The position numbers were made by a program, and so were the translations under genes. Positions 4,270 to 59,661 of a stretch of 64,000 bases of DNA are shown piece by piece; position 1 is the first letter of the stretch; every line of letters begins with the position of its first letter. The DNA lies in assembly GCA_043819495.1 (NCBI GenBank), contig JBDRET010000030.1:5463-69462 (forward strand), read 5' to 3'. The notes beneath the pieces are model-generated. The model did not search any database and was not told the origin of the DNA. It saw nothing but the letters and a program-made list of their open reading frames with translations. This DNA is from Candidatus Woesearchaeota archaeon. Its GTDB lineage: Archaea > Nanobdellota > Nanobdellia > Woesearchaeales > UBA11576.

Positions 4270-5130
4270 ATGATAGCTGAATCTATACTTTTCACTATAG
4301 TCCTTATAGCTCTTCTGATAGGCACGTATACTGACTTTAAGGTCCGGGAAGTGCCTGATTGGCTCAATTACGGGCTCATATTCGTAGGTATAGGTCTGCG
4401 GCTCATATTCAGCATCGCTTACCATGATGCAGGCTACTTGCTTGAGGGAATTTTTGGGCTGGGCGCCTTCTTTGTCATCGCAATTGTCATGTTCTATGGG
4501 GGCCAGTGGGGTGGTGGTGATGCCAAGATGGTGATGGGTCTTGGAGCCTTGATTGGCCTTAAACTGAGTCTTGATGCCTTCCTGATAGGTTTTATGATCA
4601 ATATAGTGATATGTGGGGCCATATTTGGGATATTATTCAGCATTTATCTTGTGGCTTTGGACTTCCGATGTTTTGCAAAAGAGTTCAATAAGCGATTTAA
4701 GGAGAAGAAGCATGAGAAATGGGTTGTCTGGATAACAACTGTCGCCCTTCTTGTCCTGTCCACAGTCCTGCCTGTCCAGCTTAAGGTATCTGTGGTTGTC
4801 CTTGCAGGTATGCTCTTGCTGACTTTCTATATGTTTGTCTATCTTAAGGCAGTAGAGGCCGCATCAATGATAAAATGGGTATCTCCTGATAAGCTGACAG
4901 AAGGGGATTGGATAGTTGAGGATGTCATTGTTGGTGGTAAAAAGATCTGCGGACCAAAGGATCTTGGCATTGATATGTCGCAGATAAAGAAGCTCATCAG
5001 GTTGAGCAAGCAAGGCAAGGTGAAAAAGGTCCTGGTCAAGTACGGGATACCTTTTGTCCCAAGTTTCCTTCTTGCATTCCTTCTCACTTATTTCTTGGGG
5101 AATGTCATATTCAACATATTGGGTCTGTGA
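4270..5130 (+). CDS. type IV prepilin/preflagellin peptidase (A24 family, PibD/FlaK/EppA-like)
   Basis: 286 aa, polytopic. The two catalytic-Asp motifs are FKVREVPDW and QWGGGDAKMV (GxGDxK). Confidence 0.85.
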   Translation: MIAESILFTIVLIALLIGTYTDFKVREVPDWLNYGLIFVGIGLRLIFSIAYHDAGYLLEGIFGLGAFFVIAIVMFYGGQWGGGDAKMVMGLGALIGLKLSLDAFLIGFMINIVICGAIFGILFSIYLVALDFRCFAKEFNKRFKEKKHEKWVVWITTVALLVLSTVLPVQLKVSVVVLAGMLLLTFYMFVYLKAVEAASMIKWVSPDKLTEGDWIVEDVIVGGKKICGPKDLGIDMSQIKKLIRLSKQGKVKKVLVKYGIPFVPSFLLAFLLTYFLGNVIFNILGL

Positions 5131-5186
5131 ATTCTGTGGCAGGACATTCACGTCTTTTCTCAGGTCTTATTATTTAAATGAAAATG

Positions 5187-5194
5187 TTTAAATA
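5187..5194 (+). promoter_or_regulatory. TATA-box candidate (TTTAAATA) for pilin 1
   Basis: About 30 nt upstream of the ATG at 5222. Confidence 0.4.
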
Positions 5195-5221
5195 GGAGTC
5201 TAGGCTGGATTACTGATTAAG

Positions 5222-5722
5222 ATGGTATTCAAATCAAAAAAAGGACTCTCTCCGCTGATTGCAGCGGTACTTCTCATCGTCGTTGTTGTCGGGATCGGTG
5301 CTGTAGTGACTAGCATGGTCCGTGAAAAAGTGACTGATGACAAGAAGACAATAACAAAGACTTCATCTACTGTAGATTGTGCTACTCAAGTGAACATAAA
5401 GATATCCAAGCTTGAATCTGATGACCTGATATGCAAGGGTCCGAATTATATCAACGTCACCATAGAGAATATTGGAACTGACGTAGATGGATTCCAGCTG
5501 AAAGTATTTGGAGCGGATGGGTTCGTACAGAACGATAGCATGATGGATGCAGGTCTTGCGCGTGGTAAGCTGGCATTCAATTATCTGGCATATTTTGATT
5601 CAGCGATCACTGGAGAAGTCACTGAGATCTCGATAATACCTAAGATAAAGGTTGCAGGTTTCAGTGAATTGACATTATGTTCTGACTCTGCAATCAAGTA
5701 TGCAGGGATGTCTGACTGCTGA
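5222..5722 (+). CDS. archaeal type IV pilin (class III signal peptide), paralogue 1
   Basis: MVFKSKKG|LSPLIAAVLLIVVVVGIGAVV is a short basic leader, K-G, then a hydrophobic helix. Four conserved Cys, with the C-terminus ending ...SDC. Confidence 0.85.
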   Translation: MVFKSKKGLSPLIAAVLLIVVVVGIGAVVTSMVREKVTDDKKTITKTSSTVDCATQVNIKISKLESDDLICKGPNYINVTIENIGTDVDGFQLKVFGADGFVQNDSMMDAGLARGKLAFNYLAYFDSAITGEVTEISIIPKIKVAGFSELTLCSDSAIKYAGMSDC

Positions 5723-5770
5723 TTTTTCTTGTTATTTTTTTCTGTTTCATTTCTTTTTTCTTTTTTCGTA
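5723..5770 (+). terminator. oligo-T terminator region after pilin 1
   Basis: Several T5-T7 runs (gatttttcttgttatttttttctg...cttttttcttttttcg) directly after the stop codon. Archaeal termination uses oligo-T. Confidence 0.5.
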
Positions 5771-6060: not shown

Positions 6061-6118
6061 CTAAAAGTTCAATAACCTCCTTAAAACCGGTTTGATTACC
6101 ATATAAAAGAGGGATTTG

Positions 6119-6655
6119 ATGTTATTGAAAGGTAAGAGCGCAATTTCTCCACTTATAGCCGCAGTTCTACTTGTAGTTGTAGTTGTGACTCTTGGTGCTG
6201 CAGTCATGACCATCGCCCGTAATTATCTCACCGAAGGTGAGAAACAGGTGACTATAGGAAAAGAATCCATAAAGTGTGGCAGGGATGTTGGATTGGGGTT
6301 TGTGCTGGTGAATGACAACTATCAGATATGCAATGGCACGAACGCTGATGATTCTGATCTTGCCTCTCTGAATTTCATGATTGAGAATACTGGAACTGTG
6401 CCGATCCTGGATTTGCAGGTACGTGTAGTGGGGTCTAGTGGTATAATCCAGAATGATTCTGTGCTGAATGGTACGCTCGCCACAGGAGGGGTCCAGCTGA
6501 TAAACATGAGTTATGATCCTGAACTATTGGGTAGTTTCAGGCAGGTAAAGGTAGTGCCAAGGATAAATCTTCCAGGGATCACTGAACATGCATTTTGCTC
6601 AGACGCAGGTGTGACCATCTCGTCTGTTCCTAATAATTGTACGACATACCAATAA
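6119..6655 (+). CDS. archaeal type IV pilin, paralogue 2
   Basis: MLLKGKSA|ISPLIAAVLLVVVVVTLGAAV, with the same 4-Cys pattern. The track starts at the TTG at 6116; the ATG at 6119 is preferred. Confidence 0.85.
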   Translation: MLLKGKSAISPLIAAVLLVVVVVTLGAAVMTIARNYLTEGEKQVTIGKESIKCGRDVGLGFVLVNDNYQICNGTNADDSDLASLNFMIENTGTVPILDLQVRVVGSSGIIQNDSVLNGTLATGGVQLINMSYDPELLGSFRQVKVVPRINLPGITEHAFCSDAGVTISSVPNNCTTYQ

Positions 6656-6670
6656 GGAGGTGTATTAGAC

Positions 6671-7207
6671 ATGAAAATATTGATGTCAAAAAAAGGTCTT
6701 TCACCATTGATCGCAGCAGTATTGCTGATTGTGGTCGTGGTAGGAATCGGAGCAGTCGTCACGGGAATCGTGAGGAATTATGTTACCGAGAATAAACAGA
6801 TTATAACAGAGAAAGCTTCTGATATGAAGTGTGGAGTTGAAGTGGGAATAAATATCCCTACTGTACTTGATGAAGTGAGGCTCTGTAAGGCAAGCGATTC
6901 AATCAAGTTTACAATGGAGAACACAGGGTCTACTACAATAGACGATCTTCAGGTGAAGTTCTTCGGTACTGGAGGTTTCGGATCTAATGATACTGTAGGT
7001 ACGATGACAACACTTTTTGGTGCTGATGGGATGAATGCTGGTGAGACTATAGAATTCAATGTGTCTTTCTCTTCTGCAGCCTTAGGACAGGATATAGTAA
7101 ATATCCAACAGATAAAGATAGTGCCTAGAGTCAAGGTTGTCGGAAGATCTGAGAAAGCATATTGTACTGATGCAGGACTCAGCTACAGTGATATGATTGA
7201 CTGTTAA
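6671..7207 (+). CDS. archaeal type IV pilin, paralogue 3
   Basis: MKILMSKKG|LSPLIAAVLLIVVVVGIGAVV, with a strong SD (GGAGGTG) 9 nt upstream. The C-terminus ends ...IDC. Confidence 0.9.
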   Translation: MKILMSKKGLSPLIAAVLLIVVVVGIGAVVTGIVRNYVTENKQIITEKASDMKCGVEVGINIPTVLDEVRLCKASDSIKFTMENTGSTTIDDLQVKFFGTGGFGSNDTVGTMTTLFGADGMNAGETIEFNVSFSSAALGQDIVNIQQIKIVPRVKVVGRSEKAYCTDAGLSYSDMIDC

Positions 7208-7256: not shown

Positions 7257-7760
7257 ATGTTTAAGTCTAAACGTGCATTGTCACCACTGATTGCATCAGT
7301 CCTCCTTATTGTCGTAGTCGTAGGCATAGGCGCTGTGGTGACCAGCATGTTGAGAGGGATGGTCCAGGAGAATAAGCAGACCATCGAGAGCAAGAGTGAC
7401 CAGATATCCTGTTCCAGCGATGTCATGGTCGAAGTCATAAGGATTGATGGTATCTCTCAGATATGTAAAGGGGCAGGTTATATCGATGTTGTGCTTGAGA
7501 ATGCTGGCGGGGAGATAGATGATTTCCAGCTGGTGGTGGTCGGCACTACAGGGATATACACCAATGATTCTATCATGGGTGGCAAGGTTTTTGCCCGTGG
7601 TCAGGCGATGGAGCTGAATGGGACATTTGATACTTCTGTAGTTGCTTCTGGCAATGTCATACAGGCCAAGTTTGTCCCTAAACTCAAGAAGAAAAGCGGC
7701 GGGGGATTCAATTATTGTTTTGATGTAGCGATCGTAGCGACCACTATGGATGATTGTTAG
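7257..7760 (+). CDS. archaeal type IV pilin, paralogue 4
   Basis: MFKSKRA|LSPLIASVLLIVVVVGIGAVV, with the same 4-Cys pattern. The C-terminus ends ...DDC. Confidence 0.9.
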   Translation: MFKSKRALSPLIASVLLIVVVVGIGAVVTSMLRGMVQENKQTIESKSDQISCSSDVMVEVIRIDGISQICKGAGYIDVVLENAGGEIDDFQLVVVGTTGIYTNDSIMGGKVFARGQAMELNGTFDTSVVASGNVIQAKFVPKLKKKSGGGFNYCFDVAIVATTMDDC

Positions 7761-7763
7761 GTA

Positions 7764-8058: not shown

Positions 8059-8634
8059 CTACGGCATCCTTCTCAATTGCTTTACAAGGTAATTCTCTTC
8101 TTTCTCTTCTTCTGGTACTTTTTCAGGATCAGCATCTTTCTCAGCTGTAGAAGCATCTGTATTCCCTGGTGTTGCAGGACTTCCACTATTTTCGGCGTTA
8201 CGCACACCTTCTGACTCTTCTTCTCTTGCAAGGTCTTCTTTAAGCTGTATCTCGACAGCGGCCATCTCTTCCTCTCCTAGCTGTCTGGGTGGCCATTCGA
8301 ACATGAGTCCATCATCTCCGCGGCGGGGTATTATGTTGACTGAGAGGTGCGGCTCTTCCTGTCCTGCTTCCATCCCATTGTGGATTATTATGTTGGTGCC
8401 GTCAGATTTTATCGATTCAAACACTGAGACTGAGAGCCTGTTGACGATATTGAAGAGGTGTTCGGAATCATCTGCGCTCAGCGCCTCGAATATGGGCTTG
8501 TGTTCTTTTGGCACTACGACTATGTGGCCTATCGTTGCTGGCTGCTCTGCTAGGAACGCCACGAACTTATCATCTTCATACAGTCTCGCGGATTTCTTCT
8601 TCCCGTTTATGATATCGCAGTATGTGCAGCTCAT
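8059..8634 (-). CDS. HIT (histidine triad)-like protein with degenerate triad and acidic tail
   Basis: 191 aa with the N-terminal CTYCDII zinc-type motif. HIVVVPKEH and GTNIIIHNGMEAGQEEPHLSVNIIPR show a HIT fold, but the triad reads H-L-S-V-N. Confidence 0.75.
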   Translation of the reverse strand: MSCTYCDIINGKKKSARLYEDDKFVAFLAEQPATIGHIVVVPKEHKPIFEALSADDSEHLFNIVNRLSVSVFESIKSDGTNIIIHNGMEAGQEEPHLSVNIIPRRGDDGLMFEWPPRQLGEEEMAAVEIQLKEDLAREEESEGVRNAENSGSPATPGNTDASTAEKDADPEKVPEEEKEENYLVKQLRRMP

Positions 8635-8677: not shown

Positions 8678-9478
8678 TCACTTGAACATATTCGCTATCG
8701 TGTCAAGATCTGCACCTTTGCCCTCTCTATCATCATCTGGTGGAGCTATCTCACTTGCAGTATTGTTTTCACTATCTTTTTGGTCATTATGTCCTGCAGA
8801 GTCAGGACTGGGATCCTGATGTTCTTGTTGCTGTTCCTCTTCTGTGTTTTTCTCTACAGAATCTTCTTGTCCTTCAGGCGGTTCTGGAGATTCTTTTCCA
8901 TCTTCATCATCAACAGTTGTATCGATCTGTTCAGGTTCAGGCTTGACGATCTCCACAGGTTCGACTGGTTCATGTTCGATGCCGAAGTGGTCATCGACTT
9001 TCTTTTTTATTGCTACCCTGAGCTTCTCCTGGTCCTCATCTGTGATCTTGTTCTTGGGCAGGTTAAATGCAGTTATCCCATCATTTTCCTTTCTTGGTAT
9101 CAGATGTATCATGAAGTGTGGCGCTTTCTGTCCTGCTGCCGCCCCATTTGCTATGAACATATTTGTGCCGTCGGCTTTCAGTGCTCTGAGCTGTGACTTT
9201 GATACTTTCCGGGCTATCCTGAACAGGTGGTTTATCTCATCCTCAGGCATGAGAGGCATTATGGAATAGTGCTCTTTAGGGAGTATCAGTACATGGCCAG
9301 GATTAGCAGGGTTGATATCAAGTATCGCCAGGCATCTTTCATCTTCATACATCCTCTTGGATGATACTTTGCCTGATATTATCTGGCAGAATATGCATTG
9401 CTTCTTCTGCATCTCTCTCAACTGTTCAGGATTCATCTCCTTCAGCTGTTCTTCTGTAAGTTCTGCCATATTGTTCAT
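8678..9478 (-). CDS. HIT-like protein with degenerate triad and long acidic low-complexity tail
   Basis: 266 aa with CIFCQII, GHVLILPKEH and NGAAAGQKAPHFMIHLIPR (triad H-F-M-I-H). About 100 aa of E/D/P-rich tail. The start overlaps the stop of the upstream gene (ATGA). Confidence 0.75.
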   Translation of the reverse strand: MNNMAELTEEQLKEMNPEQLREMQKKQCIFCQIISGKVSSKRMYEDERCLAILDINPANPGHVLILPKEHYSIMPLMPEDEINHLFRIARKVSKSQLRALKADGTNMFIANGAAAGQKAPHFMIHLIPRKENDGITAFNLPKNKITDEDQEKLRVAIKKKVDDHFGIEHEPVEPVEIVKPEPEQIDTTVDDEDGKESPEPPEGQEDSVEKNTEEEQQQEHQDPSPDSAGHNDQKDSENNTASEIAPPDDDREGKGADLDTIANMFK

Positions 9479-12400
9479 CTTTTCTTACGTCTTTTTATTA
9501 GTTTCGGAGATGTCTTCAAATGTGCTTTCTGATATGGTGTGTTGCGTTGTTTATGTCTTCTTGCGCTGCTTATGCGCACATCTGACTCGGCTTTCTTCTG
9601 AGGTAAGGGTGTTTTCGGTTGCAGATGATTGAATAGGTCTCGTATGAGTATGACTGCAAGGGTCATGAGTGATATGAGCAACGGGATGTAGAGCACCATC
9701 AGTGGCAGTCCTGTACTTGCTCCCAGTTCTTCTACAGGATATATGAATTTCGTGAAGAATGTGTTGAATATGAGGGATATGGTAGTGATCGCTATCAGTA
9801 CTGTGAGCACGAATAATATTATGTACAACCTTTTCGAGTGCGGCTTGCTGCGCTCTACTTCTCCTTTCTCAGCATATATCTTCTTGAGTATCAGGTATGC
9901 AATGCCTTCCACGAGCACTATCGAGAATGTGCCGGAGAGGAAAACTATTATCTCATCTATAAGGAGCATGTTGTCTGCTATCGCCATGCATATCCCCTGT
10001 GAGAATCCGAACCAGGGGATCATGAATATGACTAGCAGGGTAGCCATAGTTCCGTTAGCTATTGCAAAGACGGTCTTCTCATTCTTTGGTGTGGTGTGCC
10101 CTCTTGTCAATATTATCATCAGCAGGAGTATCAGCACCAGTAATGGGTGCAATGTGCATAGTATGTTTGATTCTGCTGTCTCTGCAATCTCTATTATCCT
10201 CGCTTTTTCGCATGCTGGACAGCTTCCGCCACAATCTACACCTGTCTCATCATAGTTTGTGATGCGATCATTGCAGTGCGAGTATCCGCATCCTCTGCTC
10301 GTCTCAGGCATCCCTCTGAATATCCTGCAGTCCTGAAGATCAGTGCATCCTCTTTCCTGTGTACCTGATGCGCTACATTCACTCCATTCTGTGCATTTCC
10401 ATTCGGTATCGCATGGTATGTAGCAGTTCCTCTTTGTGATCGGTCGGTATTCCCAGGTGCCACAGGAATTCACATCTTCACAGGTCCTGCTCTCCTGTCC
10501 ATTGAAGCATTCTGTCCATTCATCACAGGACCAGTCTTCTTTGCATGTTGGCTTATCTGGTGGGGTGCATCCGCTGCATCCTGGATTTATCGGAGGATGG
10601 ACATCGTATTGTGATATGGTGAGTGACCGGTTCAGGTCTCCCCAGTCAGTCTTTCCTTCACTGTCCAGCACAATGCAGTTCCAGACGTAGCTTCCGATGG
10701 ATACATCGTATGTCCAAGAGGATGAATTTTCTGTCCCTGTGATTGCTGTGGTGCTGTTCAGAGCGAATGCTTCACCTGTGCTGTTTGTAATGTACAATGC
10801 TATGCTTGTCAATGTAGCATTGGTCTTTGCAGAGCAGTTGAACGTGATTGATGAGGCGTCTGCTTCTGTCTCTATGTTCGTATCTGCTGCAGGGGTATTC
10901 AGCGTCACTTTTGGCCCGATAGTTATCGTCAGTTTAGGTCTGAGAGATGGGTCTGCAAGATAGTCTGAGCTCCAGAATCTCTTGACCTTGTTGGTTATTC
11001 CTGCATCTTCCGTGCTTGCTTTGAGATACAATCCCTGATTCTGCTCTATAGAATCATACCATTCGCTTACGAGTCCTGTTATGTTCCACAGGTACCATCC
11101 ATCAGTATCATTCACGATCACATTGTCATATATGTATGAAGAGTATCCTGACCTGTTATTCCATGCTATCCCGTCTTCAGGCCAGTCACCAGTCACTCTC
11201 ACAGCGTCGATGGACAGGTCATTTGGCTCACCTGATGTCTTATAGAGTTCCATCCGCGCATCTGTGATAGAAAGTCCTGGCTGCAGGTCTGATATGTTCC
11301 ACAGGAGCATCGCCCTGCTGTTGTTTCCGCTCTCGCCATTGATCCTCATCTGTGTGTTTGTGCCGTAGGTGGTCGAAGGTGTCCCTTCATAGATGAAAGT
11401 ATCAGTGCCATTGATGTCATCCGGCTGCTCTATGAATACGGGGTCAAGAGGAGTTATGTCAAGTCTGTATATCGTTCCGGGTGTGAGTGTCCTGTCATAC
11501 ACTAGATCCTCATGGCATATCTCCTGGCTATCGCTGTAGTTATAGCACTTCCAGAGTGATGTACCATTTGCCACCTTGTATACTGTGAAGTTCCCGAAGT
11601 CAAGAGCAGTAGGATCTACGAGGGTGTTGTGCGGCCATCCTGTTATGTTGCTTGTCAGGCCGAGCTTGAGGTCATTGCTTATGTTTATCTTATTGTGTGT
11701 GCGTACTGTTATGTTCTTGATGATGGTGGAATCGAAAGGCACTATCTCTACATCGACACGTGTCCCGTTCTCCTTTACCTGTACCTGGTTGTTGAATACG
11801 AATCCATCTGTTGCATCTATCCAGTTGATGGTGTAATTGCTCTCCATGAACCCGACAGTCCCTGAACCGAACTGCACTGTATAATTCTGTCCTGGTGGGA
11901 AGTCTGCAACCTTGATCCATCTGTTGCTTGTGCAGTTTTGGTTTGCAAAGTCCCATTCATAACAGAGGAACGCGTCACCTGTAACTGCTGTGACAGTTAT
12001 GTTGACATATTCGTATCCAGATATCTTAGGTTGTATGGCGTAGGTATTGACGAAATCATACAAGGTTACTGTAAAGTTGTCAAGGTCCATGATTTCTGTT
12101 ATGTTCCGGGTGACTGTATAGTTGTGTATCAGTATCTCATGTATCGTGAGGTCAAGAGGGCGTATCTTTATATCGTAGACTCCTGCAGATATGTTCTTGA
12201 GCTCTCCGGATGATGTCTGGACATCAATCTCGCCAGAACCGAGGTCTATCAGTTCTATGGTAGCGCTTATGAACTGGCCGTGCGCGTTCTGGACAGTCTC
12301 GTTGATTATCAGCGTCTCATTATCTGTACCTGACGGGTAATCTATGTATAGTGTCCAGTTCTCTGATGTCCCGGTATTGCCGAAATTGTCGATGCACAGC

Positions 12401-38498: not shown

Positions 38499-38534
38499 AG
38501 AAGGTGTTATGAAGTGGAAAAAGAAACGAGCGGC

Positions 38535-43532: not shown

Positions 43533-43542
43533 GGTGGCGAAG

Positions 43543-51888: not shown

Positions 51889-51895
51889 GGTGGCA

Positions 51896-53042: not shown

Positions 53043-53750
53043 ATGGGTATTAAGGCTCAAATATGGGTTTCAGCAATACTGTACATACTTATCATAAGTG
53101 TAGTTATGGTATTGGTACTGAATGCAGGAGTTCCGATAATCAAGGATCTGCAGGACAAGACAGTCTTCACGAGATCCAAGAATACATTTCTGACCCTTAA
53201 TCAGCACATCAATGAGATAAGTGAGGAAGGTGTGGGGTCGCAGAGAGTTATACCTGTAGAGATAGAGAAAGGTTATCTTGAGCTGAAGGATGGTTCTCTT
53301 AAGTGGGATATGCGCACCAATGCAAAGATACTTGAGTCAGGCCAGCAGATAGAGTTAGGCAATCTGTACATATCTTCCAATGCTGATGTATCCTCCCGCA
53401 ATTATGCTGAGAACTATACTCTTGAGAACAATTACCTTAGGGCGACATTCCATAAATGTGAAGACCGCAGTACCTGCGTATTCAATCAGACAGGTATGCT
53501 CTGGCAGTTGGTATTCAAGAATCCTGAATCAGGTGTTGAGACTGCAGCGCTGAATCCTTTTGAGTTCTATTTCGATTCTTCAGGAGGAGCGTGGGAAGCT
53601 TCAGGATATTCCGTGCTTGAGGATGAAGGGTCAAGTCTTGGAGCAGCACGCGTGCTCTTTTACATCAATAATACTGATGCTAGCTACTACAGCGTGATGG
53701 AGTTCACATTGGAGAGCAATAGGGATTTCATGCAGGTGAAGATAAGGTAA
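53043..53750 (+). CDS. pilin-like protein (class III-type signal)
   Basis: MGIKA|QIWVSAILYILIISVVMVLVL, 235 aa. Confidence 0.6.
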   Translation: MGIKAQIWVSAILYILIISVVMVLVLNAGVPIIKDLQDKTVFTRSKNTFLTLNQHINEISEEGVGSQRVIPVEIEKGYLELKDGSLKWDMRTNAKILESGQQIELGNLYISSNADVSSRNYAENYTLENNYLRATFHKCEDRSTCVFNQTGMLWQLVFKNPESGVETAALNPFEFYFDSSGGAWEASGYSVLEDEGSSLGAARVLFYINNTDASYYSVMEFTLESNRDFMQVKIR

Positions 53751-53830: not shown

Positions 53831-55972
53831 GTGGCATTTTCATTTTTTGGCAAGAAGAAAACTGAAGAGCAACCAGCTGTGCAGGCTGCGGGTGCTGGTA
53901 AGCAGGTACCTCCTAACGCTGTTCCTAGTGCTCCTGGTTTTGCTTCTGCTGCACCTGGTGCTGTCTCTAAACCTGAGGGATTAGTCATAGAGAAACAGCC
54001 TGCAGCAAAGCCTAACATAATTTTTAGTGCAGGTAATGCTGGTTCTTTGAAGGCTAACCTGGGCAAGATAGCGCATAAGGCAGCACATGATGTTGATATG
54101 GATACTTCATCTGCAATGCTTGATGAGTCTGATCGACCAGGTGAAAAAAAGAGTTTCATTGAGCTGAGTGCAAAGGAATCTAAGACACTCAAAAAAAATG
54201 CTGAGGATGAAGCTGCTGCTAAAAAGGCAAGTGAGAAGGCTGGCGAGAAACCTGCTGTTGAGAAAAAAGGAGTAGCACCTCTGAAGGTCGAAACCAAGGG
54301 AGAAGAGGAATCAAGGGTGTCACATGAAGCAGCAGCTACGGTCGCAGATGATGCTGCATTGGCAGCACCTGGCGGAGAGAATGCGGAAGAAGCTGGTGAC
54401 GAAGAAGGGACTGGAAAGATAGAGACTAAAGAAGGTTTTTACATAGATACTCATCCTAAAATAATAAAGCTTCCGCCTTACGATCAGCGAAGGACATTAA
54501 ATGTGCGCTATCCGCTCATACCACCGTATGCTTACGCCCATATCTATTGGGATGATGAACAGAATGAGCTGATATATTCTATTGAAGAACCTGTTCTTGA
54601 TGAGACTGAGAGAGAACTTTTGGAGCTCGTAAATCTAGGTCTTGAAGAGATGATCAACATAAGTTTTGTGCGTGCCGCAAAATCTCATATTCTGTTGCAA
54701 TACCTTGAGAAGAACGTGCAAAGCATTCTTGTGGAGTTAGGCACTAAAGTTAATCGTAAGACATACCATAAGATAATGTATTATGTATACAGGAATTCTG
54801 TAGGGCTCAATGAGATAGAACCATTGCTGAATGATTATTATGTAGAAGATATAGAATGCAATGGTTGTAACTTTCCTCTCTACATAGTGCATCGTGTCTA
54901 TCAGAACATAAAGAGTACAGTAGAGTTTAAAGACCTTGCATACATGACTGATTTTGTTGAGAAATTAGCCCAGAAGACTGGTAGGTATATCTCTTATGCA
55001 AAGCCGCTTTTGGATGGGACTCTTCCGGACGGATCAAGGGTTAATGCTACATACACTGAGGACGTAACAACTAGAGGACCTACTTTCACGATAAGGAAAT
55101 TTACAAAGGAGCCTTGGACTCCAGTTCATCTTATTAAATCTAAGACGGTGACTGCAGAAGCTTTTGCTTATCTTTGGTTAGTCATAGAGCATAAATTTAA
55201 CATGATGGTTGTGGGAGAGACTGCATCTGGAAAGACCACTTTCCTGAATTGCATTGTTGATTTTATTCCTCCTGAAGCAAGGATATGTTCGATCGAAGAT
55301 ACTCGTGAGCTTAACCTGGCGCACATAAACTGGTTGCCTGCAGTGACAAGAGCAGGTTTTGGCGCAACAGATGCTGCAGGTATACAGTTCGGAGAAATTA
55401 CTCTGTTTGATCTTCTGAGAGAGAGCTTCAGGCAGAATCCTGATTATGTCATTGTGGGAGAGATAAGGGGTAAGGAAGCATATGTATTGTTCCAAGGTAT
55501 GGCATCAGGCCATCCATCATTCTCTACATTCCACGCAGCTTCAGTCGATACTGTAGTGAAGAGGTTGGAGACTCCTCCGATTAACTTGTCACCTTCACTT
55601 GTGGAGGCGCTTGATGTCGTTTGCATATGTATTCACGTCAAGGATCAGGAGCGTAACGTAAGAAGGTTAAAGGAAGTAGATGAGATAATTGGGATTGAGC
55701 AAGCTCTTGGTAAGGCAAATTATAATGCAGTATTTGAGTTTGACCCTGCAAGTGATAAGATAATATTCAATGGTAAGCCCACTATCTTTGAGAGGATAAT
55801 AAAGAAGACAGGTATGACTTATGCACAGCTAAAAGCAGAGATGGACACGCGTACAGCGCTCTTGAATAAGATGGTTGAGCAGAACATATCTAACTTTGAA
55901 AAGTTCAATGAAGTAGTTAATAATTATTACAAGGATCCTAATATGGTAAGGAAGCAGTTTGGTATAAAGTGA
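53831..55972 (+). CDS. type II/IV secretion-system ATPase (FlaI/PilB/GspE family) with ~200-aa low-complexity N-extension
   Basis: 713 aa. Walker A VVGETASGKTTFLN, Asp box ICSIEDTRELNL, Walker B PDYVIVGEIRGKEA, His box GHPSFSTFHA. GTG start with an AGAGGG SD. Confidence 0.9.
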   Translation: MAFSFFGKKKTEEQPAVQAAGAGKQVPPNAVPSAPGFASAAPGAVSKPEGLVIEKQPAAKPNIIFSAGNAGSLKANLGKIAHKAAHDVDMDTSSAMLDESDRPGEKKSFIELSAKESKTLKKNAEDEAAAKKASEKAGEKPAVEKKGVAPLKVETKGEEESRVSHEAAATVADDAALAAPGGENAEEAGDEEGTGKIETKEGFYIDTHPKIIKLPPYDQRRTLNVRYPLIPPYAYAHIYWDDEQNELIYSIEEPVLDETERELLELVNLGLEEMINISFVRAAKSHILLQYLEKNVQSILVELGTKVNRKTYHKIMYYVYRNSVGLNEIEPLLNDYYVEDIECNGCNFPLYIVHRVYQNIKSTVEFKDLAYMTDFVEKLAQKTGRYISYAKPLLDGTLPDGSRVNATYTEDVTTRGPTFTIRKFTKEPWTPVHLIKSKTVTAEAFAYLWLVIEHKFNMMVVGETASGKTTFLNCIVDFIPPEARICSIEDTRELNLAHINWLPAVTRAGFGATDAAGIQFGEITLFDLLRESFRQNPDYVIVGEIRGKEAYVLFQGMASGHPSFSTFHAASVDTVVKRLETPPINLSPSLVEALDVVCICIHVKDQERNVRRLKEVDEIIGIEQALGKANYNAVFEFDPASDKIIFNGKPTIFERIIKKTGMTYAQLKAEMDTRTALLNKMVEQNISNFEKFNEVVNNYYKDPNMVRKQFGIK

Positions 55973-56037
55973 AAGTAGTTTGGTATGTTTGATATGAAAT
56001 GAATTTTGATACACAATATCCTGTTTAGGTGTGGTTT

Positions 56038-56268
56038 ATGAAAAACGATAACACTACAGATTACATAATTGAGATTGATGAGAGCATGCGTGAGATTGCT
56101 GCTCTTGATGAGTTATACACAGAGCTTGTAGGATCTAGTCCGGAGAGCGATAGGGAGATGAAGATCAAGCAGGACGAGGCGAAGTTTGCAAGGGACAGGA
56201 TACTGAGATTGTCGATGCATATCAAGAACCGCCTGGCCAAGATAGAATCACATGAGAAGCTTAAGTGA
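56038..56268 (+). CDS. small coiled-coil protein
   Basis: 76 aa with SD GGTG 6 nt upstream of the ATG at 56038. Charged heptad-like sequence of unknown family. Confidence 0.5.
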   Translation: MKNDNTTDYIIEIDESMREIAALDELYTELVGSSPESDREMKIKQDEAKFARDRILRLSMHIKNRLAKIESHEKLK

Positions 56269-56326: not shown

Positions 56327-56367
56327 GTTCGTGTCAGGGTGTCAGGTTTTTGATTTCAGTTTGATTC

Positions 56368-58725
56368 GTGAGTGGGGGGCAACACGCGGCTGTGATGATG
56401 GTTTACAGTCTTGTGGTGTTATTGGTTGCCTCATATGGACAAGATAAGATGAAGAATATACAAGTGCTTGTCAATAAGGTGCTGGAACTTGTGTCCGAGG
56501 TAGAGACATATATATTCTATAAAGAAAACTTCCTGAAGTCTTTTGAGAGAGCATTTGATGATTATCAGAGAGGAAAGCTCACTTATTTCCAGTATGAGAA
56601 AGCGCAGAAGAAGATCCTGAAAGGCAAGACCAAGGAAGAATGGACTAATTATTACGATGCGTATGTTCTCTCTTTACTGAAGCGGATTGAAACATACAAT
56701 TCTCAGATATTCTATGATGCATATACTGATACCAGTTATACGCGGATAACGACCGTTGCACCTGCACCAGTCGTTGAGAAGAGAACTGAACCAGAGCGTA
56801 TCAAGAAGGCTCATGCAGTGGAGGCAAGACCTGCTCCGGAAGAGAAGCCAAAGCCAAGAGTGCAAAAGAAGAAGGTTGAACTGGAAGAACCTGTTGCACC
56901 TGTTGCAGTAGAAGAGACTGAACAGATACCTCTTGAGGCAGAAGAATTTGCTCCGGAGATGCCTGAAGTGAAACTGGTAGAGGTCAGATTATCTATCATC
57001 GATAAGGTTGTCCTGTTCTTCAAGCACATTTTCGTCAAGAAAGAAGTCGATAAGATGATCGACAGGATAAAGGCAGATTCTACAGCGGTCAAGAAAGGCG
57101 AGGTCACTGAGGCAGTCAGAGAAAGTGTTTCAGGAGCTGCTGAAGAGGAGTTCAAGGCAGTGCCTATCGAGCTTCCTGAAGCAAGACCGATACCGGCACC
57201 TATTGATGAGCCTGAAAAAAGACCATTCCATGAGCGCATAGGTGATTATGAAGATGATATGGAGCGCGCAGAGATAAAGATGGTGATCAAGGCTCCTGAA
57301 AAGGTAACGATTGAAGAGAAGTTTGATTTGGTGTCTTGGTTTAAGAAAATTTTTGCATTCAAGAAAGTTGCGGATGAGACTGAAGGAATACAGATTGGTG
57401 CAAGAGCAGGTGAGACTGTAATTCCTGAAACAGAGCGGCAGAAGAAAGGCGAGTTTGATATTCTAGAAAATATCAAAGAACCAAGTATGTTAGACAAGCT
57501 TACGCGGATGTGGAAGAAACCAAAAGAAGAATCTGCTCTATTGGTTCCTGAAGAGGAGTTCCATGCTATCAAGGCTATCAAGACAGATGAAGCCAGTGTC
57601 AGCATGGGTGGTGGCCTGATAGAGTCTATAAGGAATATGTTTGACAGGAACAGGAAGGTACACCTGACTGAAGATAAATCACACATCCCATTCTCTACCA
57701 TGCATCTGGAGACATTGAGACGTAAATCAAAGCCCGAGATAACAGCTCAGATAGAAAAGATTACGGCAACCTCTCTGCAAAAGGAGGCAAAGAGGATACG
57801 CCATATAATGGGTAAGAGGAAGGCATTGAAGATTTATCAGCCTTCATACTTTGGTGCTGTTGCGAATATAGCGATCAAGAGGATGAGTCTTTTCCTACTT
57901 GACCAGTTCCCTGAGTTCTTCAAGGACCTCTACCATGCATTGAGGCTGGCCAATATCAAGATACTTTCCAATACTTATGTCAATATGATGGTGCTCGGAA
58001 CTATCGCAAGCTGGTTCGGCGGCCTCATATTTTTCGGCATGTTCTTTTTTGCATCAGCATTACCGATCGAACAGATATTCTTCAGGACAGTCATGATGTC
58101 AGTACTATCAGGGCTTGCGGGCTTTGCAGGATTCTATGCTTATCCTTATTCAAAACTAAAACAAAGAAGAAGGTCAATCAATACCAATCTTCCTTTCGCG
58201 ATAAATCATATGGCTGCAGTATCATCTTCAGGTGTGGCTCCTGCAAAGATGTTTAAGATGATTTCAGAATCTAAAGAGTATGGGGAATTCTCTGCAGAGA
58301 TTGAGAAGATAGTGAATTATGTGGACATATTCGGTTATGACTTATTGACTGCATTGAAATCAGTCGCTGCTACAAGCCCGTCTTTTGCTTTTAAGGATTT
58401 TCTTGAAGGCATGGTATCTACTACCCAGACAGGAGGGGATCTTAAATCCTACTTTAGTCAGAAGGCAGAAGAGGCAATGCTTAATTACAAGATGGAGCGT
58501 CAGGAGTATACTGAGACGATCGCCACTTACTCTGATATTTACACAGGGATACTTATCGCTGCTCCGTTATTTTTCGTTGCAGCATTGTCATTAGTGAGCC
58601 TGCTTGGAGGTAAAGTGGGTGGTATGAGTGTCAATACAATAATTGTTATAGGGACGTATATGGTGATCCCATTCATGAATGTGGCATTCCTGACGTTCCT
58701 TGAGCTGACACAGCCAGAGGTATGA
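56368..58725 (+). CDS. pilus platform protein, T2SS-F (FlaJ/TadC/PilC) domain 1, with ~450-aa charged N-terminal extension
   Basis: 785 aa. The C-terminal third has TM pairs flanking LPFAINHMAAVSSSGVAPAKMFKMI...DFLEGMVSTTQTGGDLKSYF. Start uncertain (GTG at 56368 or ATG at 56395). Confidence 0.8.
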   Translation: MSGGQHAAVMMVYSLVVLLVASYGQDKMKNIQVLVNKVLELVSEVETYIFYKENFLKSFERAFDDYQRGKLTYFQYEKAQKKILKGKTKEEWTNYYDAYVLSLLKRIETYNSQIFYDAYTDTSYTRITTVAPAPVVEKRTEPERIKKAHAVEARPAPEEKPKPRVQKKKVELEEPVAPVAVEETEQIPLEAEEFAPEMPEVKLVEVRLSIIDKVVLFFKHIFVKKEVDKMIDRIKADSTAVKKGEVTEAVRESVSGAAEEEFKAVPIELPEARPIPAPIDEPEKRPFHERIGDYEDDMERAEIKMVIKAPEKVTIEEKFDLVSWFKKIFAFKKVADETEGIQIGARAGETVIPETERQKKGEFDILENIKEPSMLDKLTRMWKKPKEESALLVPEEEFHAIKAIKTDEASVSMGGGLIESIRNMFDRNRKVHLTEDKSHIPFSTMHLETLRRKSKPEITAQIEKITATSLQKEAKRIRHIMGKRKALKIYQPSYFGAVANIAIKRMSLFLLDQFPEFFKDLYHALRLANIKILSNTYVNMMVLGTIASWFGGLIFFGMFFFASALPIEQIFFRTVMMSVLSGLAGFAGFYAYPYSKLKQRRRSINTNLPFAINHMAAVSSSGVAPAKMFKMISESKEYGEFSAEIEKIVNYVDIFGYDLLTALKSVAATSPSFAFKDFLEGMVSTTQTGGDLKSYFSQKAEEAMLNYKMERQEYTETIATYSDIYTGILIAAPLFFVAALSLVSLLGGKVGGMSVNTIIVIGTYMVIPFMNVAFLTFLELTQPEV

Positions 58726-58737
58726 GGTTATGATACT

Positions 58738-59661
58738 ATGCATCTAGTGGTTGAAAAGAGACACATCATCTCGATGGTGTTCGGTATAGTCTTCCTAGGT
58801 GTAGATTTCTTCTTTTTCATGAATACTACTTGGTTCATACCGCTGATAGTCATCGCTCTGAGCATAGGCTGGAGCCAGTTCTGGATAGATTACTTTGTCA
58901 ATACCAAGAGGCAGAAAGAGATAGAGTCGATGTTCCCTGAGTTCGTCAGGAATCTTGTAGGCGCGATAAAGTCAGGCATGCCGGTGAGCAAGGCGATCAT
59001 ATACGTAGCACATACTGATTACGGGGCACTGACACCTTACGTGATAAAGCTTGCAAACCAGGTCGAATGGGCAATACCAGTGCACAAGGCATTGTTGAAC
59101 TTCGCAAATGAGACGGATAATGGTGTGATCAAGAGGAGCATCGCGACAGTGATCGAGGCAGAGATCTCCGGAGGTAACATGGAGGACGTGCTTGAGACTG
59201 TGACATCTTCAGTGATCGAGATCAAGAAGATAAAGCTTGCCCGAAAGACCAGCATCCATTCACAGCTCGTGCAGAGCTATATCATATTCATAGTTTTCTT
59301 AGGTGTCATGGTAGTCATCCAGAACCTTCTCATTCCGTACATAGCAGACATAGAGACAAAGAACGTGGATGGTATGAGCGAGGGTGCAGGGATGTCACTG
59401 AGCTCAGCATCATTAGGGGGCGTATTGAGTCCTATCCAGATAGATTACTCTTCTCTTGGCGCATTCTTAGGCACTTTTGGAGCATGGTTGGTATCAATAA
59501 GAGGGGTGTTCCTCATGCTCTCGCAGATCCAGGCATTGTTCGCAGGGCTGGTCCTAGGAAAGCTCTCTGAAGGTGACATAAAGACGGGAGTCAAGCATTC
59601 CCTGATATTGATGACAATAGCATTCTTCGTGATATCATTGGCTCAGGGCGCAATGGGTTAA
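58738..59661 (+). CDS. pilus platform protein, T2SS-F domain 2 (separate gene)
   Basis: 307 aa with FPEFVRNLVGAIKSGMPVSKAI...VIEAEISGGNMEDVLETV and flanking TM helices. Confidence 0.8.
   Translation: MHLVVEKRHIISMVFGIVFLGVDFFFFMNTTWFIPLIVIALSIGWSQFWIDYFVNTKRQKEIESMFPEFVRNLVGAIKSGMPVSKAIIYVAHTDYGALTPYVIKLANQVEWAIPVHKALLNFANETDNGVIKRSIATVIEAEISGGNMEDVLETVTSSVIEIKKIKLARKTSIHSQLVQSYIIFIVFLGVMVVIQNLLIPYIADIETKNVDGMSEGAGMSLSSASLGGVLSPIQIDYSSLGAFLGTFGAWLVSIRGVFLMLSQIQALFAGLVLGKLSEGDIKTGVKHSLILMTIAFFVISLAQGAMG

What the first reader, a model, noticed from the sequence alone, without database searches (positions are those of the whole stretch)
4270..59661. Candidate integrated attachment apparatus: type IV pilus genes bracketing about 45 kb of giant adhesin and fibre genes
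The left flank has an A24 prepilin peptidase and four pilins. The right flank has five or six pilin-like genes, a FlaI-type ATPase and a split FlaJ/TadC-type platform. Between them lie only secreted or membrane-anchored proteins (5153, 2003, 1353, 1194, 897, 770 and 653 aa, plus smaller ones) and their putative regulators. No archaellum-specific accessory genes are present. The arrangement suggests one co-inherited surface organelle, a pilus plus giant adhesins and fibres. Such an organelle would suit an episymbiotic archaeon attaching to a host cell. The functional coupling between pilus and giants is my inference.
Basis: inference. Interest (0 to 1): 0.7.

Follow-up and report, generated by a model that had tools for sequence, protein, structure and literature searches.

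The report
Archaeal pilus operon carrying giant adhesins
In an uncultured DPANN archaeon (Woesearchaeota), the genes that build a type IV pilus lie in one inherited neighbourhood with genes for huge secreted sticky proteins; this is probably its kit for holding on to a host or surface, but physical coupling of pilus and giants is still unproven.

Summary
Window 4270-59661 holds an A24 prepilin peptidase, four pilins, a 37.7-kb same-strand gene train and a pilus assembly core. The train runs regulator, 5153-aa beta-helix giant, 770 aa, 230 aa, two YadA-head fibre proteins, 897 aa, five pilin-like genes plus a 2-TM gene, ATPase, a 79-aa ORF and a split FlaJ-like platform. The window comes from a Candidatus Woesearchaeota MAG.

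The same layout recurs on at least four other contigs, including one with peptidase at 53% identity and a different left flank.

The main new point is a ~740-aa C-terminal module of FN3/Ig-like sandwiches shared by the 5153-, 770- and 897-aa proteins. A module protein lies directly upstream of the pilin-like block in 16/16 loci with ATPase at least 61% identical, even where flanks differ. It is absent in 0/21 more distant loci, so the pilus core is older and autonomous.

Corrections: two cytoplasmic HIT genes sit inside the locus, one "pilin" is a 2-TM protein, and the minus-strand block (1194, 2003 aa) is dispensable.

Physical pilus-adhesin coupling remains inference. I rate this a new variant of a known kind, because archaeal T4P loci with predicted adhesins are already described.

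The parts
4270..5130 (+). A24 prepilin (class III signal) peptidase
   Evidence: PF01478 E 1e-12 plus Arc_PepC_II. GGGD at aa 81-84. Orthologues at 47-83% identity hold the same position.
5222..5722 (+). Pilin pilA1, the likely major pilin
   Evidence: Class III leader KKG|LSPLIAAVLL and a weak Pilin_N hit. TATA-like boxes lie upstream, and the gene is followed by a 393-bp gap with six T5-7 runs.
6116..6655 (+). Pilin pilA2
   Evidence: Paralogue of pilA1, 3 and 4 at 31-39% identity. Orthologues at 70-73% identity keep the same order.
6671..7207 (+). Pilin pilA3
   Evidence: Class III leader. Orthologues at 59-69% identity.
7257..7760 (+). Pilin pilA4
   Evidence: Class III leader KRA|LSPLIASVLL. 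Orthologues at 49-54% identity.
8059..8634 (-). HIT-family protein 1 (cytoplasmic); a conserved occupant of the locus with unknown role here
   Evidence: PF01230 E 3e-16. No hydrophobic segment. Present next to the peptidase in L015, L016, L017, L019 and L020.
8678..9478 (-). HIT-family protein 2
   Evidence: PF01230 E 6e-22. Paralogue of HIT1 at 39% identity.
9475..13059 (-). 1194-aa membrane protein: signal peptide, CBM96/DNRLRE/disaggregatase-repeat domain, C-terminal polytopic domain (aa ~966-1139) and a basic tail
   Evidence: CBM96 E 2e-16. DNRLRE E 6e-28. Hydrophobic segments. Part of the variable minus-strand block.
13171..13722 (-). 183-aa secreted or anchored protein, homologous to the C-terminus of the 2003-aa protein
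   Evidence: Orthologue at 66% identity in L015.
13719..14273 (-). 184-aa protein with an N-terminal hydrophobic segment
   Evidence: No family match.
14270..15196 (-). 308-aa protein with an N-terminal hydrophobic segment
   Evidence: Orthologue at 65% identity in L015.
15250..21261 (-). 2003-aa N-terminally anchored surface protein
   Evidence: N-terminal TM segment aa 16-34. Only weak Ig hits. The N-terminal 500 aa are 39-40% identical to proteins of 947 and 1413 aa at the same position in L015 and L014. Absent in L016 and L017.
21258..21518 (-). 86-aa small cytoplasmic protein, possibly winged-helix, heading the minus-strand block
   Evidence: Orthologues at 55-59% identity in L014 and L015 hold the same divergent position. 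Weak MsvR-like hit.
21939..23027 (+). 362-aa putative regulator (archaeal ATPase_2 plus winged HTH) heading the plus-strand train
   Evidence: Weak HTH_5, MarR and ATPase_2 hits. Orthologues of 355-401 aa head the giant gene in L014-L017, L019 and L020, with ATPase_2 and HTH_24 hits on record.
23037..38498 (+). 5153-aa giant. In order: signal peptide, about 8 plus 3 NosD/beta-helix units (aa ~200-3070), hydrophobic hairpin (aa 3290-3344), a second repeat region, and the C-terminal module (aa 4415-5153)
   Evidence: NosD E 7e-59 and Beta_helix E 2e-54. Repeats. Hairpin. Module. 52% identical over aa 2921-5152 to a 6626-aa protein in the same slot.
38514..40826 (+). 770-aa secreted protein consisting of the module alone
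   Evidence: 45-48% identical to the other two modules. AF2 pLDDT 80.5, all-beta, about 7 sandwiches. Foldseek returns FN3/Ig strings. Exact match to NCBI ABIA62_03380.
40869..41561 (+). 230-aa N-terminally anchored protein sharing a Cys-rich C-terminal domain with the 653-aa protein
41571..43532 (+). 653-aa secreted fibre-like protein with YadA-head repeats
   Evidence: YadA_head E 1e-10, 41.9 bits against a cut-off of 25. 30 Cys.
43534..47595 (+). 1353-aa fibre-like protein with YadA-head repeats; its N-terminus is homologous to the 653-aa protein
   Evidence: YadA_head E 3e-7. Homology. Slot-mates in relatives carry Peptidase_S74.
47657..50350 (+). 897-aa secreted protein: a 160-aa N-domain plus the module. 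It is the module protein that always abuts the pilin-like block
   Evidence: Only a 10-bp gap to the next gene.
50361..50918 (+). Pilin-like protein mp185
   Evidence: Leader RKA|QFYIFTAVLL. Orthologues.
50998..51492 (+). Pilin-like protein mp164
   Evidence: Leader RRA|VSAWISWVLL.
51601..51888 (+). 95-aa two-TM membrane protein (not a pilin), 80-90% identical in close relatives
51890..52471 (+). Canonical pilin pil193, about 30% identical to pilA1-4
   Evidence: Leader RKA|VSPLIATVLL. TIGR02537 27 bits against a cut-off of 20. Followed by three T5 runs.
52523..52942 (+). Pilin-like protein mp139
   Evidence: N-terminal TM segment. The orthologue has the canonical KG|ISVLIF leader.
53043..53750 (+). 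Pilin-like protein mp235, the minor pilin found next to the ATPase in the whole wider family
   Evidence: Leader IKA|QIWVSAILY. 75 homologues all carry K-G/A|Q-V/I-W-I/V. The single-sequence model is poor, showing only a long N-terminal helix followed by beta strands.
53831..55972 (+). Pilus assembly ATPase (archaeal GspE2/FlaI-like) with a ~200-aa low-complexity N-extension
56029..56268 (+). 79-aa conserved small ORF, coiled-coil-like, cytoplasmic
   Evidence: tblastn hits at 48-80% identity at the same position in 9 relatives.
56368..58725 (+). Platform half A: a ~530-aa charged N-terminal region plus one T2SSF domain (the N-half of FlaJ)
58738..59661 (+). Platform half B: one T2SSF domain (the C-half of FlaJ)

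Best explanation
This is the cell-surface attachment locus of a Woesearchaeota (DPANN) archaeon.

What it contains:
- A non-archaellar type IV pilus system: A24 peptidase, four major-type pilins, five pilin-like minor subunits, an ATPase and a FlaJ-like platform split into two genes.
- An assembly operon that is fused on the same strand, with gaps of a few bases, to genes for Sec-secreted adhesins.

The adhesins:
- They are built on a common plan. A variable N-terminal 'passenger' is followed by a conserved ~740-aa C-terminal stalk of about seven FN3/Ig-like sandwiches, here called the module.
- The passenger can be nothing (770 aa), a 160-aa domain (897 aa), or up to ~4400 aa of NosD-type beta-helix arrays (5153 aa).
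- YadA-head fibre proteins lie among them.
- A conserved ATPase_2/wHTH regulator heads the train.

Shown here:
- The gene identities.
- The operon-like spacing.
- Inheritance of the whole layout in relatives.
- The invariant position of a module protein directly upstream of the pilin-like genes within one clade.

Inferred:
- The genes are co-transcribed.
- Pilus and adhesins act together in attachment to a host cell or surface.
- The giants arose by repeat amplification of ordinary ~1-kaa beta-helix+module proteins.

Not shown: any physical contact between pilus and adhesins.
For: Identities.

Origin: the 770-aa protein is identical to ABIA62_03380 of a Candidatus Woesearchaeota MAG on a 199,952-bp contig.

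Operon-like spacing: gaps from regulator to mp185 are 9, 15, 42, 9, 1, 61 and 10 bp, with no T5 run. T-runs occur only after pilin genes.

Synteny across both arms:
- CAZLYC010000003.1: UPPS | peptidase + 3 pilins | HIT, HIT, 346, 175, 295, 947, 88 | regulator -> 6626 -> 765 -> 319 -> 1019 -> 909 -> 6 small -> ATPase -> platform.
- CAYOQS010000002.1: the same without the minus-strand block.
- Ga0394877_0000001: peptidase 53% and ATPase core 70% identical, with a ribosomal-protein left flank. The order is peptidase | HIT, HIT | regulator -> 3957 aa -> 4846 aa (both ending in the module) -> 6 small -> ATPase -> 76 aa -> split platform.

ATPase-ascertained test:
- A module protein lies immediately upstream of the pilin-like block in 16/16 loci with ATPase at least 61% identical and at least 6 kb of upstream sequence.
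- This includes compact operons (L026-L031) whose outer flanks are unrelated to the window.
- It is 0/21 at 57% identity or below.

Module position: in 24 full-length 50%-identity representatives of 858-6626 aa, the module always ends at the protein's C-terminus.
Against: - At the depth where both arms are seen together, some housekeeping neighbours (UPPS, NFACT) are syntenic too. Part of the linkage may therefore be mere descent.
- Two HIT genes with no obvious surface role are as conserved in the locus as the adhesins.
- The same pilus core exists without module proteins in more distant relatives. It has no large neighbour at all in 6 of 13 such loci.
- One relative has the peptidase alone.
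- There are no expression or imaging data.
- Signal peptides were judged by eye and by hydrophobicity only.
Confidence: 0.7

Rival explanations
1. Tip-display version. The module proteins are the archaeal counterpart of PilC/PilY1. They are primed onto the minor-pilin initiation complex through their conserved extreme C-terminus, by beta-strand addition, and are carried out on the pilus tip. Three alternative cargoes (5153, 770, 897 aa) compete for the tip.
For: - A module protein is always the gene next to the pilin-like block.
- The module is always C-terminal, and the protein ends 0-2 residues after the last strand.
- The last ~75 aa are among the parts that stay alignable in the most distant homologues. 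Yet they have pLDDT 44-51 in the monomer model.
- The 770- and 897-aa proteins have a signal peptide but no anchor.
- In bacteria, the last ~10 residues of PilC/PilY1 complete a sheet of PilK and hold the adhesin on the tip (PMC13533445).
Against: - The fold is a string of FN3/Ig sandwiches, not a PilY1 beta-propeller.
- The 5153-aa and 6626-aa giants carry a strongly hydrophobic internal hairpin, which suggests membrane anchorage.
- No complex prediction could be run.
- The minor-pilin model is unusable, with pLDDT 39.
Confidence: 0.2
2. Surface-protein island without functional coupling. The module, beta-helix and YadA-like proteins are envelope or S-layer-like proteins, or host-glycan binding or degrading proteins. 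They happen to be inherited next to the pilus genes, and the two work independently.
For: - Housekeeping flanks (UPPS, NFACT) and HIT genes are also syntenic.
- Gene content between the arms is highly variable, as in cell-surface islands. The slot holds 1055 to 6626 aa, and the minus-strand block is present or absent.
- Foldseek hits include the SbsB S-layer protein among generic Ig strings.
- Makarova et al. 2016 could not decide between adhesin and S-layer protein for such neighbours.
Against: - The module-to-pilin-block adjacency survives complete turnover of the outer flanks (L026-L031).
- Gaps of 1-61 bp without terminator-like T-runs do not look like independent, highly expressed S-layer genes.
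- The module family is confined to the clade that has this operon form.
Confidence: 0.2
3. It is an archaellum (motility) locus or a laterally acquired mobile island.
For: - The best NCBIfam hit of the ATPase is the FlaI model, and the platform halves hit ArlJ/FlaJ models.
Against: - The ATPase scores 409 bits against a cut-off of 550. The platform halves score 107 and 45 bits against cut-offs of 400-550.
- There is no ArlF, G, H, C/D/E or X.
- There is no integrase, transposase or tRNA, and GC is even at 0.40-0.49.
- The position in the chromosome is conserved across relatives.
Confidence: 0.02

Closest known systems
Archaeal adhesive type IV pilus loci with associated predicted adhesins or S-layer-like proteins (census of Makarova et al. 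2016, PMC4858521; for example the Methanococcus Epd-type locus with large DUF2341 proteins proposed as PilY-like tip adhesins)
   Same: Both have class III pilins, an A24 peptidase, a FlaI-like ATPase, a FlaJ/TadC-like platform, several minor pilins, and large signal-peptide proteins encoded in the locus. In both cases a role as adhesin is predicted only from context.
   Different: - Here the large proteins belong to a separate family with a ~740-aa FN3-stalk C-terminal module and no DUF2341.
- The passengers are interchangeable and reach 4-6 kaa.
- They sit in front of the minor pilins inside the operon.
- The platform is split.
- The host lineage is DPANN. That census found ATPases in 'nanoarchaea' but could not identify cognate pilins.
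Bacterial type IVa pilus minor-pilin/PilY1 (PilC) operon
   Same: A large Sec-secreted non-pilin protein is encoded with the minor pilins. It has a conserved C-terminal part, a variable N-terminal part, and a functionally critical extreme C-terminus.
   Different: The C-terminal fold is FN3/Ig sandwiches, not a beta-propeller. There is no sequence similarity. Three paralogues occur per genome. There is no evidence of tip location.
Bacterial Tad/Flp pilus (TadB plus TadC)
   Same: The platform is encoded as two genes, each with one T2SSF domain. The ATPase is related to CpaF (E 8e-39). The peptidase is of the short A24 type.
   Different: The ATPase is much nearer to archaeal GspE2 and FlaI. 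The pilins are archaeal, of 165-235 aa, not Flp-type. There is no secretin, TadZ or RcpA.
Trimeric autotransporter adhesins (YadA family)
   Same: The 653- and 1353-aa proteins contain YadA-head repeats above Pfam's threshold.
   Different: No YadA anchor or beta-barrel translocator was found, and there is no outer membrane to hold one. Relatives end instead in Peptidase_S74-type tail-fibre chaperone domains.
Giant surface proteins of other DPANN archaea (for example the SPEARE proteins of Nanohaloarchaeota; recalled from memory, not tested here)
   Same: These are multi-thousand-residue secreted proteins in an ultra-small episymbiont, proposed to mediate host contact.
   Different: No protease or nuclease domains were found here. 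The defining feature here is the operonic link to a pilus and the shared C-terminal module.

Membership tests
Archaeal type IV pilus (type IV filament) system | Pilins with a class III signal peptide: a short basic leader, G/A at position -1, then a hydrophobic helix | tested here: met
   Nine proteins have the motif. pil193 passes TIGR02537 at 27 bits against a cut-off of 20.
Archaeal type IV pilus (type IV filament) system | A24 aspartic prepilin peptidase | tested here: met
   PF01478 at 48.9 bits against a cut-off of 26.5. GGGD motif present.
Archaeal type IV pilus (type IV filament) system | Secretion-superfamily ATPase with Walker A and B motifs | tested here: met
   T2SSE at 105.7 bits. 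GETASGKT and VIVGE motifs. PDB 2OAP at E 5e-109.
Archaeal type IV pilus (type IV filament) system | Polytopic platform with two T2SSF domains | tested here: met
   Two T2SSF domains are present but on two polypeptides, the N-half and C-half of FlaJ. The split is conserved in all relatives.
Archaellum | Accessory proteins ArlF/ArlG, ArlH and ArlC/D/E or ArlX, plus an equivalog-level ArlI | tested here: not met
   No hits except an 18.5-bit ArlG match of a pilin against a cut-off of 110. The ATPase scores 409 bits against a cut-off of 550.
PilC/PilY1 tip adhesins | C-terminal beta-propeller domain | tested here: not met
   The AF2 model (pLDDT 80.5) is a string of beta-sandwiches. Foldseek top hits are FN3 or complement MG-domain strings.
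PilC/PilY1 tip adhesins | Encoded with the minor pilins; Sec signal and not a pilin; conserved C-terminus and variable N-terminus | tested here: met
   This is analogy of context, not homology.
PilC/PilY1 tip adhesins | The C-terminal strand completes the sheet of a PilK-like minor pilin | not testable with these tools
   No multimer prediction was available. The single-chain model of mp235 is unusable.
Trimeric autotransporter adhesin | C-terminal YadA_anchor beta-barrel | tested here: not met
   Only YadA_head is found in the 653- and 1353-aa proteins.
Archaeal S-layer protein | Forms the 2-D lattice; usually an abundant, separately transcribed gene with a membrane or pseudomurein anchor | not testable with these tools
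   The 770- and 897-aa proteins have no C-terminal TM segment, and the genes are embedded in an operon without T-run terminators. Both points weigh against this, but neither is decisive.

The most novel reading that the evidence does not exclude
Woesearchaeota use a cassette system in which one pilus machine can be armed with interchangeable megadalton-scale adhesins. Every cargo carries the same ~740-aa FN3 stalk. Its conserved terminal strand docks by beta-strand addition onto the pilin-like initiation complex encoded immediately downstream. That would make it an archaeal, non-homologous equivalent of PilC/PilY1. The internal hydrophobic hairpin of the largest cargoes might even insert into the host membrane rather than into the archaeon's own membrane.
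Probability: 0.2. Interest if true: 0.8.

Novelty: new variant of a known kind. Interest (0 to 1): 0.55.

Why it matters
How DPANN archaea hold on to their hosts is largely unknown. Pili-like appendages have been seen bridging ultra-small cells and hosts by cryo-TEM (PMC7906910), but without named components. This locus supplies a concrete and conserved parts list:
- a pilus core;
- a clade-specific family of secreted adhesins with a common stalk and swappable heads;
- fibre proteins;
- a dedicated regulator.

It also yields a sharp, testable prediction: the module C-terminus contacts a minor pilin. In addition, it shows how giant genes in this lineage arise, by repeat amplification in a fixed operon slot that holds 1055 to 6626 aa.

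Tried and rejected
- Exact-protein look-ups of the ATPase and of PlatB, translated from my ORF calls, found nothing. The origin came from the 770-aa protein instead.
- Foldseek of the module gave only generic FN3/Ig strings with TM-scores of 0.1-0.2. It supports no specific homology.
- A profile search of the mp235 family against PDB sequences gave only weak matches to designed propeller blades and was ignored.
- The single-sequence AF2 model of mp235 was too poor to use, with pLDDT 39.
- An Rfam scan of the whole window returned nothing.
- The GC-rich palindromic element between pilA1 and pilA2 is single-copy and absent from relatives, so it is not part of the system.
- I considered an archaellum and rejected it: no accessory genes, and the ATPase is below the FlaI cut-off.
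- I considered a mobile or viral island and rejected it: no integrase or tRNA, even GC, and a conserved chromosomal position.
- The hydrophobic stretch at aa 1157-1175 of the 1353-aa protein is weak (score 1.75). I do not call it a membrane anchor.
- Literature searches found no description of this locus or module.

Full report
**What is in the window**

ORF listing and translation with Pfam and NCBIfam scans give the following map.

Left of the finding lie housekeeping genes: MFS transporter, ACPS, a 243-aa protein and UPP synthase.

The finding itself contains:
- 4270-5130(+): an A24 prepilin peptidase. PF01478 scores 48.9 bits against a cut-off of 26.5, an Arc_PepC_II tail is present, and GGGD lies at aa 81-84.
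- 5222-7760(+): four paralogous pilins of 166-179 aa with class III leaders.
- 8059-9478(-): two HIT-family genes.
- 9475-21518(-): a block of six genes of 1194, 183, 184, 308, 2003 and 86 aa.
- 21939-59661(+): an unbroken same-strand train. It runs a 362-aa ATPase_2/wHTH regulator, then 5153, 770, 230, 653, 1353 and 897 aa, then six small genes, a 713-aa ATPase, a 79-aa ORF, and two platform genes of 785 and 307 aa.

To the right lie NFACT, GNAT and a Na+/H+ exchanger. No tRNA was found, there are no Rfam hits, and GC is even at 0.40-0.49.

**Check of the observation**

I make four corrections.
1. The two HIT genes are cytoplasmic-type proteins with no hydrophobic segment. 'Only secreted or anchored proteins and regulators' is therefore not true.
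2. Of the six small genes, four have canonical class III motifs: RKA|QFYIF, RRA|VSAWI, RKA|VSPLI and IKA|QIWVS. One (mp139) has the motif in orthologues (KG|ISVLIF). The 95-aa gene is a two-TM protein.
3. A 79-aa ORF at 56029-56268 is conserved in nine relatives.
4. The ATPase is FlaI-like but not FlaI. Its nearest solved relative is A. fulgidus GspE2 (2OAP, E 5e-109, against FlaI at 2e-80). It scores 409 bits on the FlaI equivalog model, whose cut-off is 550.

The platform is truly split. The 785-aa protein aligns to FlaJ profile positions 4-242 of 555, and the 307-aa protein to 275-443. No archaellum accessory protein is detectable.

**Origin**

The 770-aa protein is identical to ABIA62_03380 of a Candidatus Woesearchaeota MAG on a 199,952-bp contig. 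The peptidase and PlatB also have identical NCBI entries on that contig. The nearest relatives are Woesearchaeota or Nanoarchaeota MAGs.

**Internal anatomy of the large proteins**

All-against-all BLAST shows that the C-terminal ~740 aa of the 5153-aa protein (aa 4415-5153), almost the whole 770-aa protein (aa 28-769) and aa 161-896 of the 897-aa protein are paralogous at 45-48% identity. I call this the module.

An AlphaFold2 model of the 770-aa protein, built with 30 homologues, has pLDDT 80.5. It is all-beta, with about seven sandwich domains. Foldseek against the PDB returns only strings of FN3/Ig or MG domains at TM-scores of 0.1-0.2. There is no propeller.

The giant has, in order:
- a signal peptide;
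- about 8 plus 3 NosD/beta-helix units between aa ~200 and 3070;
- a strongly hydrophobic hairpin at aa 3290-3344;
- a second repeat region;
- the module.

The 653- and 1353-aa proteins share a Cys-rich N-terminal region and YadA-head repeats above Pfam's threshold. The 230-aa protein shares the C-terminal domain of the 653-aa protein. The 1194-aa protein combines a CBM96/DNRLRE/disaggregatase-repeat domain with a polytopic C-terminal domain. The 183-aa protein repeats the C-terminus of the 2003-aa protein.

*(a) Ascertained through the ATPase in one-genome-per-species contigs.* In all eight loci with upstream sequence (L002-L009), the order is module protein, mp185, mp164, tm95, pil193, mp139, mp235, ATPase, 79-aa ORF, PlatA, PlatB, as in the window.

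*(b) Walking upstream through module homologues.*
- CAZLYC010000003.1: 6626-aa beta-helix giant -> 765 -> 319 -> 1019 (YadA) -> 909 -> six small -> ATPase.
- CAYOQS010000002.1: 1785 -> 1208 (both beta-helix plus module) -> 998 (YadA/S74) -> 869 -> six small -> ATPase.
- JABMQF010000062.1: 1413 aa(-), 83 aa(-) | 355-aa regulator -> 1055 -> 763 -> 1222 -> ... -> 862 -> small genes. This includes the divergent 86-aa/2003-aa pair of the window.

*(c) Through peptidase homologues.*
- The same CAZLYC contig carries UPPS | peptidase + 3 pilins | DUF2061, HIT, HIT, 346, 175, 295, 947 (CBM96), 88 | regulator. This abuts the 6626-aa gene. By my arithmetic on the record coordinates, peptidase to PlatB spans about 48.7 kb.
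- CAYOQS carries UPPS | peptidase + 4 pilins | HIT, HIT | regulator -> ... with no minus-strand block (about 35 kb).
- Ga0452204_004328 is like CAYOQS.

*(d) Deeper relatives.*
- Ga0394877_0000001 is an 868-kb contig with peptidase at 53% and ATPase core at 70% identity. It has a different left flank of ribosomal proteins and elongation factors. Its order is still peptidase | HIT, HIT | 385-aa regulator -> 3957 aa -> 4846 aa -> six small -> ATPase -> 76 aa -> PlatA -> PlatB, spanning about 40 kb. Both giants end in the module.
- HAWL17-1 scaffold_17 (peptidase 47% identical) shows UPPS | peptidase | HIT, HIT | regulator -> 2925-aa NosD protein.
- One relative, L018 (peptidase 59% identical), has the peptidase next to unrelated genes.

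**A wider, unbiased test**

A metagenome scan with an ATPase alignment returned 80 loci at 40-84% identity. I called ORFs and annotated them with BLAST against the window proteins and with an HMM of the module.

- Among loci with at least 6 kb of upstream sequence, a module protein lies directly upstream of the pilin-like block in 16 of 16 with ATPase at least 61% identical. L010 and L030 are probably the same organism.
- It lies there in 0 of 21 loci with ATPase at 57% identity or below.
- In L026-L031 the operon is compact: one module protein of 1068-1234 aa, five small genes, ATPase and split platform. The genes outside it are unrelated to the window's flanks, so this adjacency is not simply inherited background. 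A profile comparison confirms the distant homology (hhalign probability 98.5%, E 2e-15).
- The distant group keeps the core only: mp235-type pilin, pil193-type pilins, ATPase and split platform. Seven of the 13 loci with both flanks visible have some other signal-peptide protein of at least 700 aa on the same strand (Ig, PKD, cadherin or LamG domains). Six have none.

The pilus core is therefore older and self-sufficient. Recruitment of the module adhesins is clade-specific but invariant within the clade.

**The module family**

An exhaustive profile search of 1.84 billion representatives finds 24 full-length proteins of 858-6626 aa in which the whole module matches as one stretch. In every case the stretch ends at the last or next-to-last residue. 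The many other hits match single sandwich repeats only.

The last ~75 residues (IF..FLD..NPSFGY...LRY...G..G.Y........G...) remain alignable in the most distant members. Yet they have pLDDT 44-51 in the monomer model.

A 2026 study shows that bacterial PilC/PilY1 adhesins are held on the pilus tip because their last ~10 residues add a strand to the sheet of a PilK-type minor pilin (PMC13533445). The parallel with this module has four parts: a conserved C-terminal end, a variable N-terminal end, a gene next to the minor pilins, and a Sec signal without an anchor. It is a lead, not a result. The fold is not that of PilY1, and I could not run a complex prediction.

**Transcription signals**

From the regulator to mp185 the intergenic gaps are 9, 15, 42, 9, 1, 61 and 10 bp, with no run of five or more T. 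Archaeal terminators are oligo-T tracts; that statement rests on established knowledge. T-runs occur after pilA1 (six runs in a 393-bp gap), pilA3, mp164 and pil193. This pattern fits abundant pilin transcripts with read-through. Co-transcription of adhesins and pilus genes is therefore plausible, but it remains inferred.

**Interpretation**

The best-supported reading is a single, vertically inherited surface-attachment locus: a non-archaellar type IV pilus whose assembly operon has taken in a family of secreted adhesins with a common FN3 stalk and swappable heads, plus YadA-head fibres and a dedicated regulator.

- The 'giants' are amplified versions of ordinary ~1-kaa beta-helix+module proteins. 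The same slot holds 1055, 1208, 1785, 3957, 4846, 5153 or 6626 aa.
- The three module paralogues (giant-type, 770-type and 897-type) are each kept as orthologous lineages in relatives, which suggests non-redundant roles.
- The minus-strand block is an optional add-on.
- Whether adhesins ride on the pilus, bind the envelope, or sit in the membrane through the giants' hairpin is open.

**Comparison with what is known**

Makarova et al. 2016 catalogued archaeal T4P loci and already predicted 'adhesins or S-layer-like proteins' as extra components. They proposed PilY-like tip adhesins for DUF2341 proteins of methanococci. For 'nanoarchaea' they found ATPases but no cognate pilins.

The present locus is thus a new variant of a known kind. 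The new elements are the module family, its strict operon position, the giant passengers, the split platform (as in TadB/TadC), and the DPANN setting. Searches of the held literature found no description of it. Cryo-TEM has shown pili-like bridges between ultra-small cells and hosts (PMC7906910).

**Verdict**

- Co-inheritance is supported.
- Functional coupling is likely but unproven.
- A single physical organelle is not shown.

Noticed in passing
window 8059-8634(-) and 8678-9478(-); L015, L016, L017, L019, L020, L031: Two paralogous HIT-family genes with acidic tails stay wedged between the prepilin peptidase and the adhesin-operon regulator in every relative seen, down to 47% peptidase identity and despite different outer flanks. 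A HIT2-like gene also lies 4 kb from a compact pilus operon (L031). No explanation.
   Followed up: partly
window ~32904-33068 (aa 3290-3344 of the 5153-aa protein); L013 aa 1499-1551 of the visible part: A strongly hydrophobic helical hairpin sits in the middle of the giant and is conserved in the 6626-aa orthologue. It is absent from the 1-1.8-kaa beta-helix+module relatives. It would leave both halves outside the cell, or it could be a membrane-insertion device.
   Followed up: partly
window 56029-56268(+): An unannotated 79-aa coiled-coil-like ORF between ATPase and platform is conserved at 48-80% identity in nine relatives. ORFs of similar size occur at this spot even in distant operons.
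   Followed up: partly
L085:405-3533, L093:9731-13099, L097:1631-8290 (also L080, L086, L090, L092, L096, L100): The pilus ATPase genes of more distant relatives are interrupted by one to several inteins with LAGLIDADG and HTH domains, giving ORFs of up to 2219 aa.
   Followed up: yes
window 5768-5950(+): A GC-rich element of about 190 nt with long terminal inverted repeats lies in the 393-bp gap after pilA1. It folds well (-74 kcal/mol, z -4.35), has no Rfam match, is single-copy in the window, and is absent from relatives.
   Followed up: partly
window 53831-54430 and 56368-57950: The ATPase has a ~200-aa and platform half A a ~530-aa charged, low-complexity N-terminal extension. Their lengths vary widely between relatives (ATPase 513-713 aa, PlatA 557-910 aa).
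   Followed up: no
L002, L003, L005, L009 (record titles): Four relatives are deposited as 'uncultured Methanosarcinales archaeon', although their genes are 65-84% identical to Woesearchaeota ones and share the whole locus. The bins are probably mislabelled.
   Followed up: no
window 9475-13059(-): The 1194-aa protein joins a CBM96/DNRLRE/disaggregatase-repeat ectodomain to a C-terminal polytopic membrane domain (about 6-7 hydrophobic segments) and a very basic tail. This is an unusual architecture with no family match for the membrane part.
   Followed up: no
L011 4596-5057; L017 10248-10727; L002 463-1170: The 160-aa N-terminal domain of the 897-aa protein is found in relatives at the N-terminus of beta-helix+module proteins at 39-58% identity. 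This shows domain shuffling among the adhesins of the locus.
   Followed up: no
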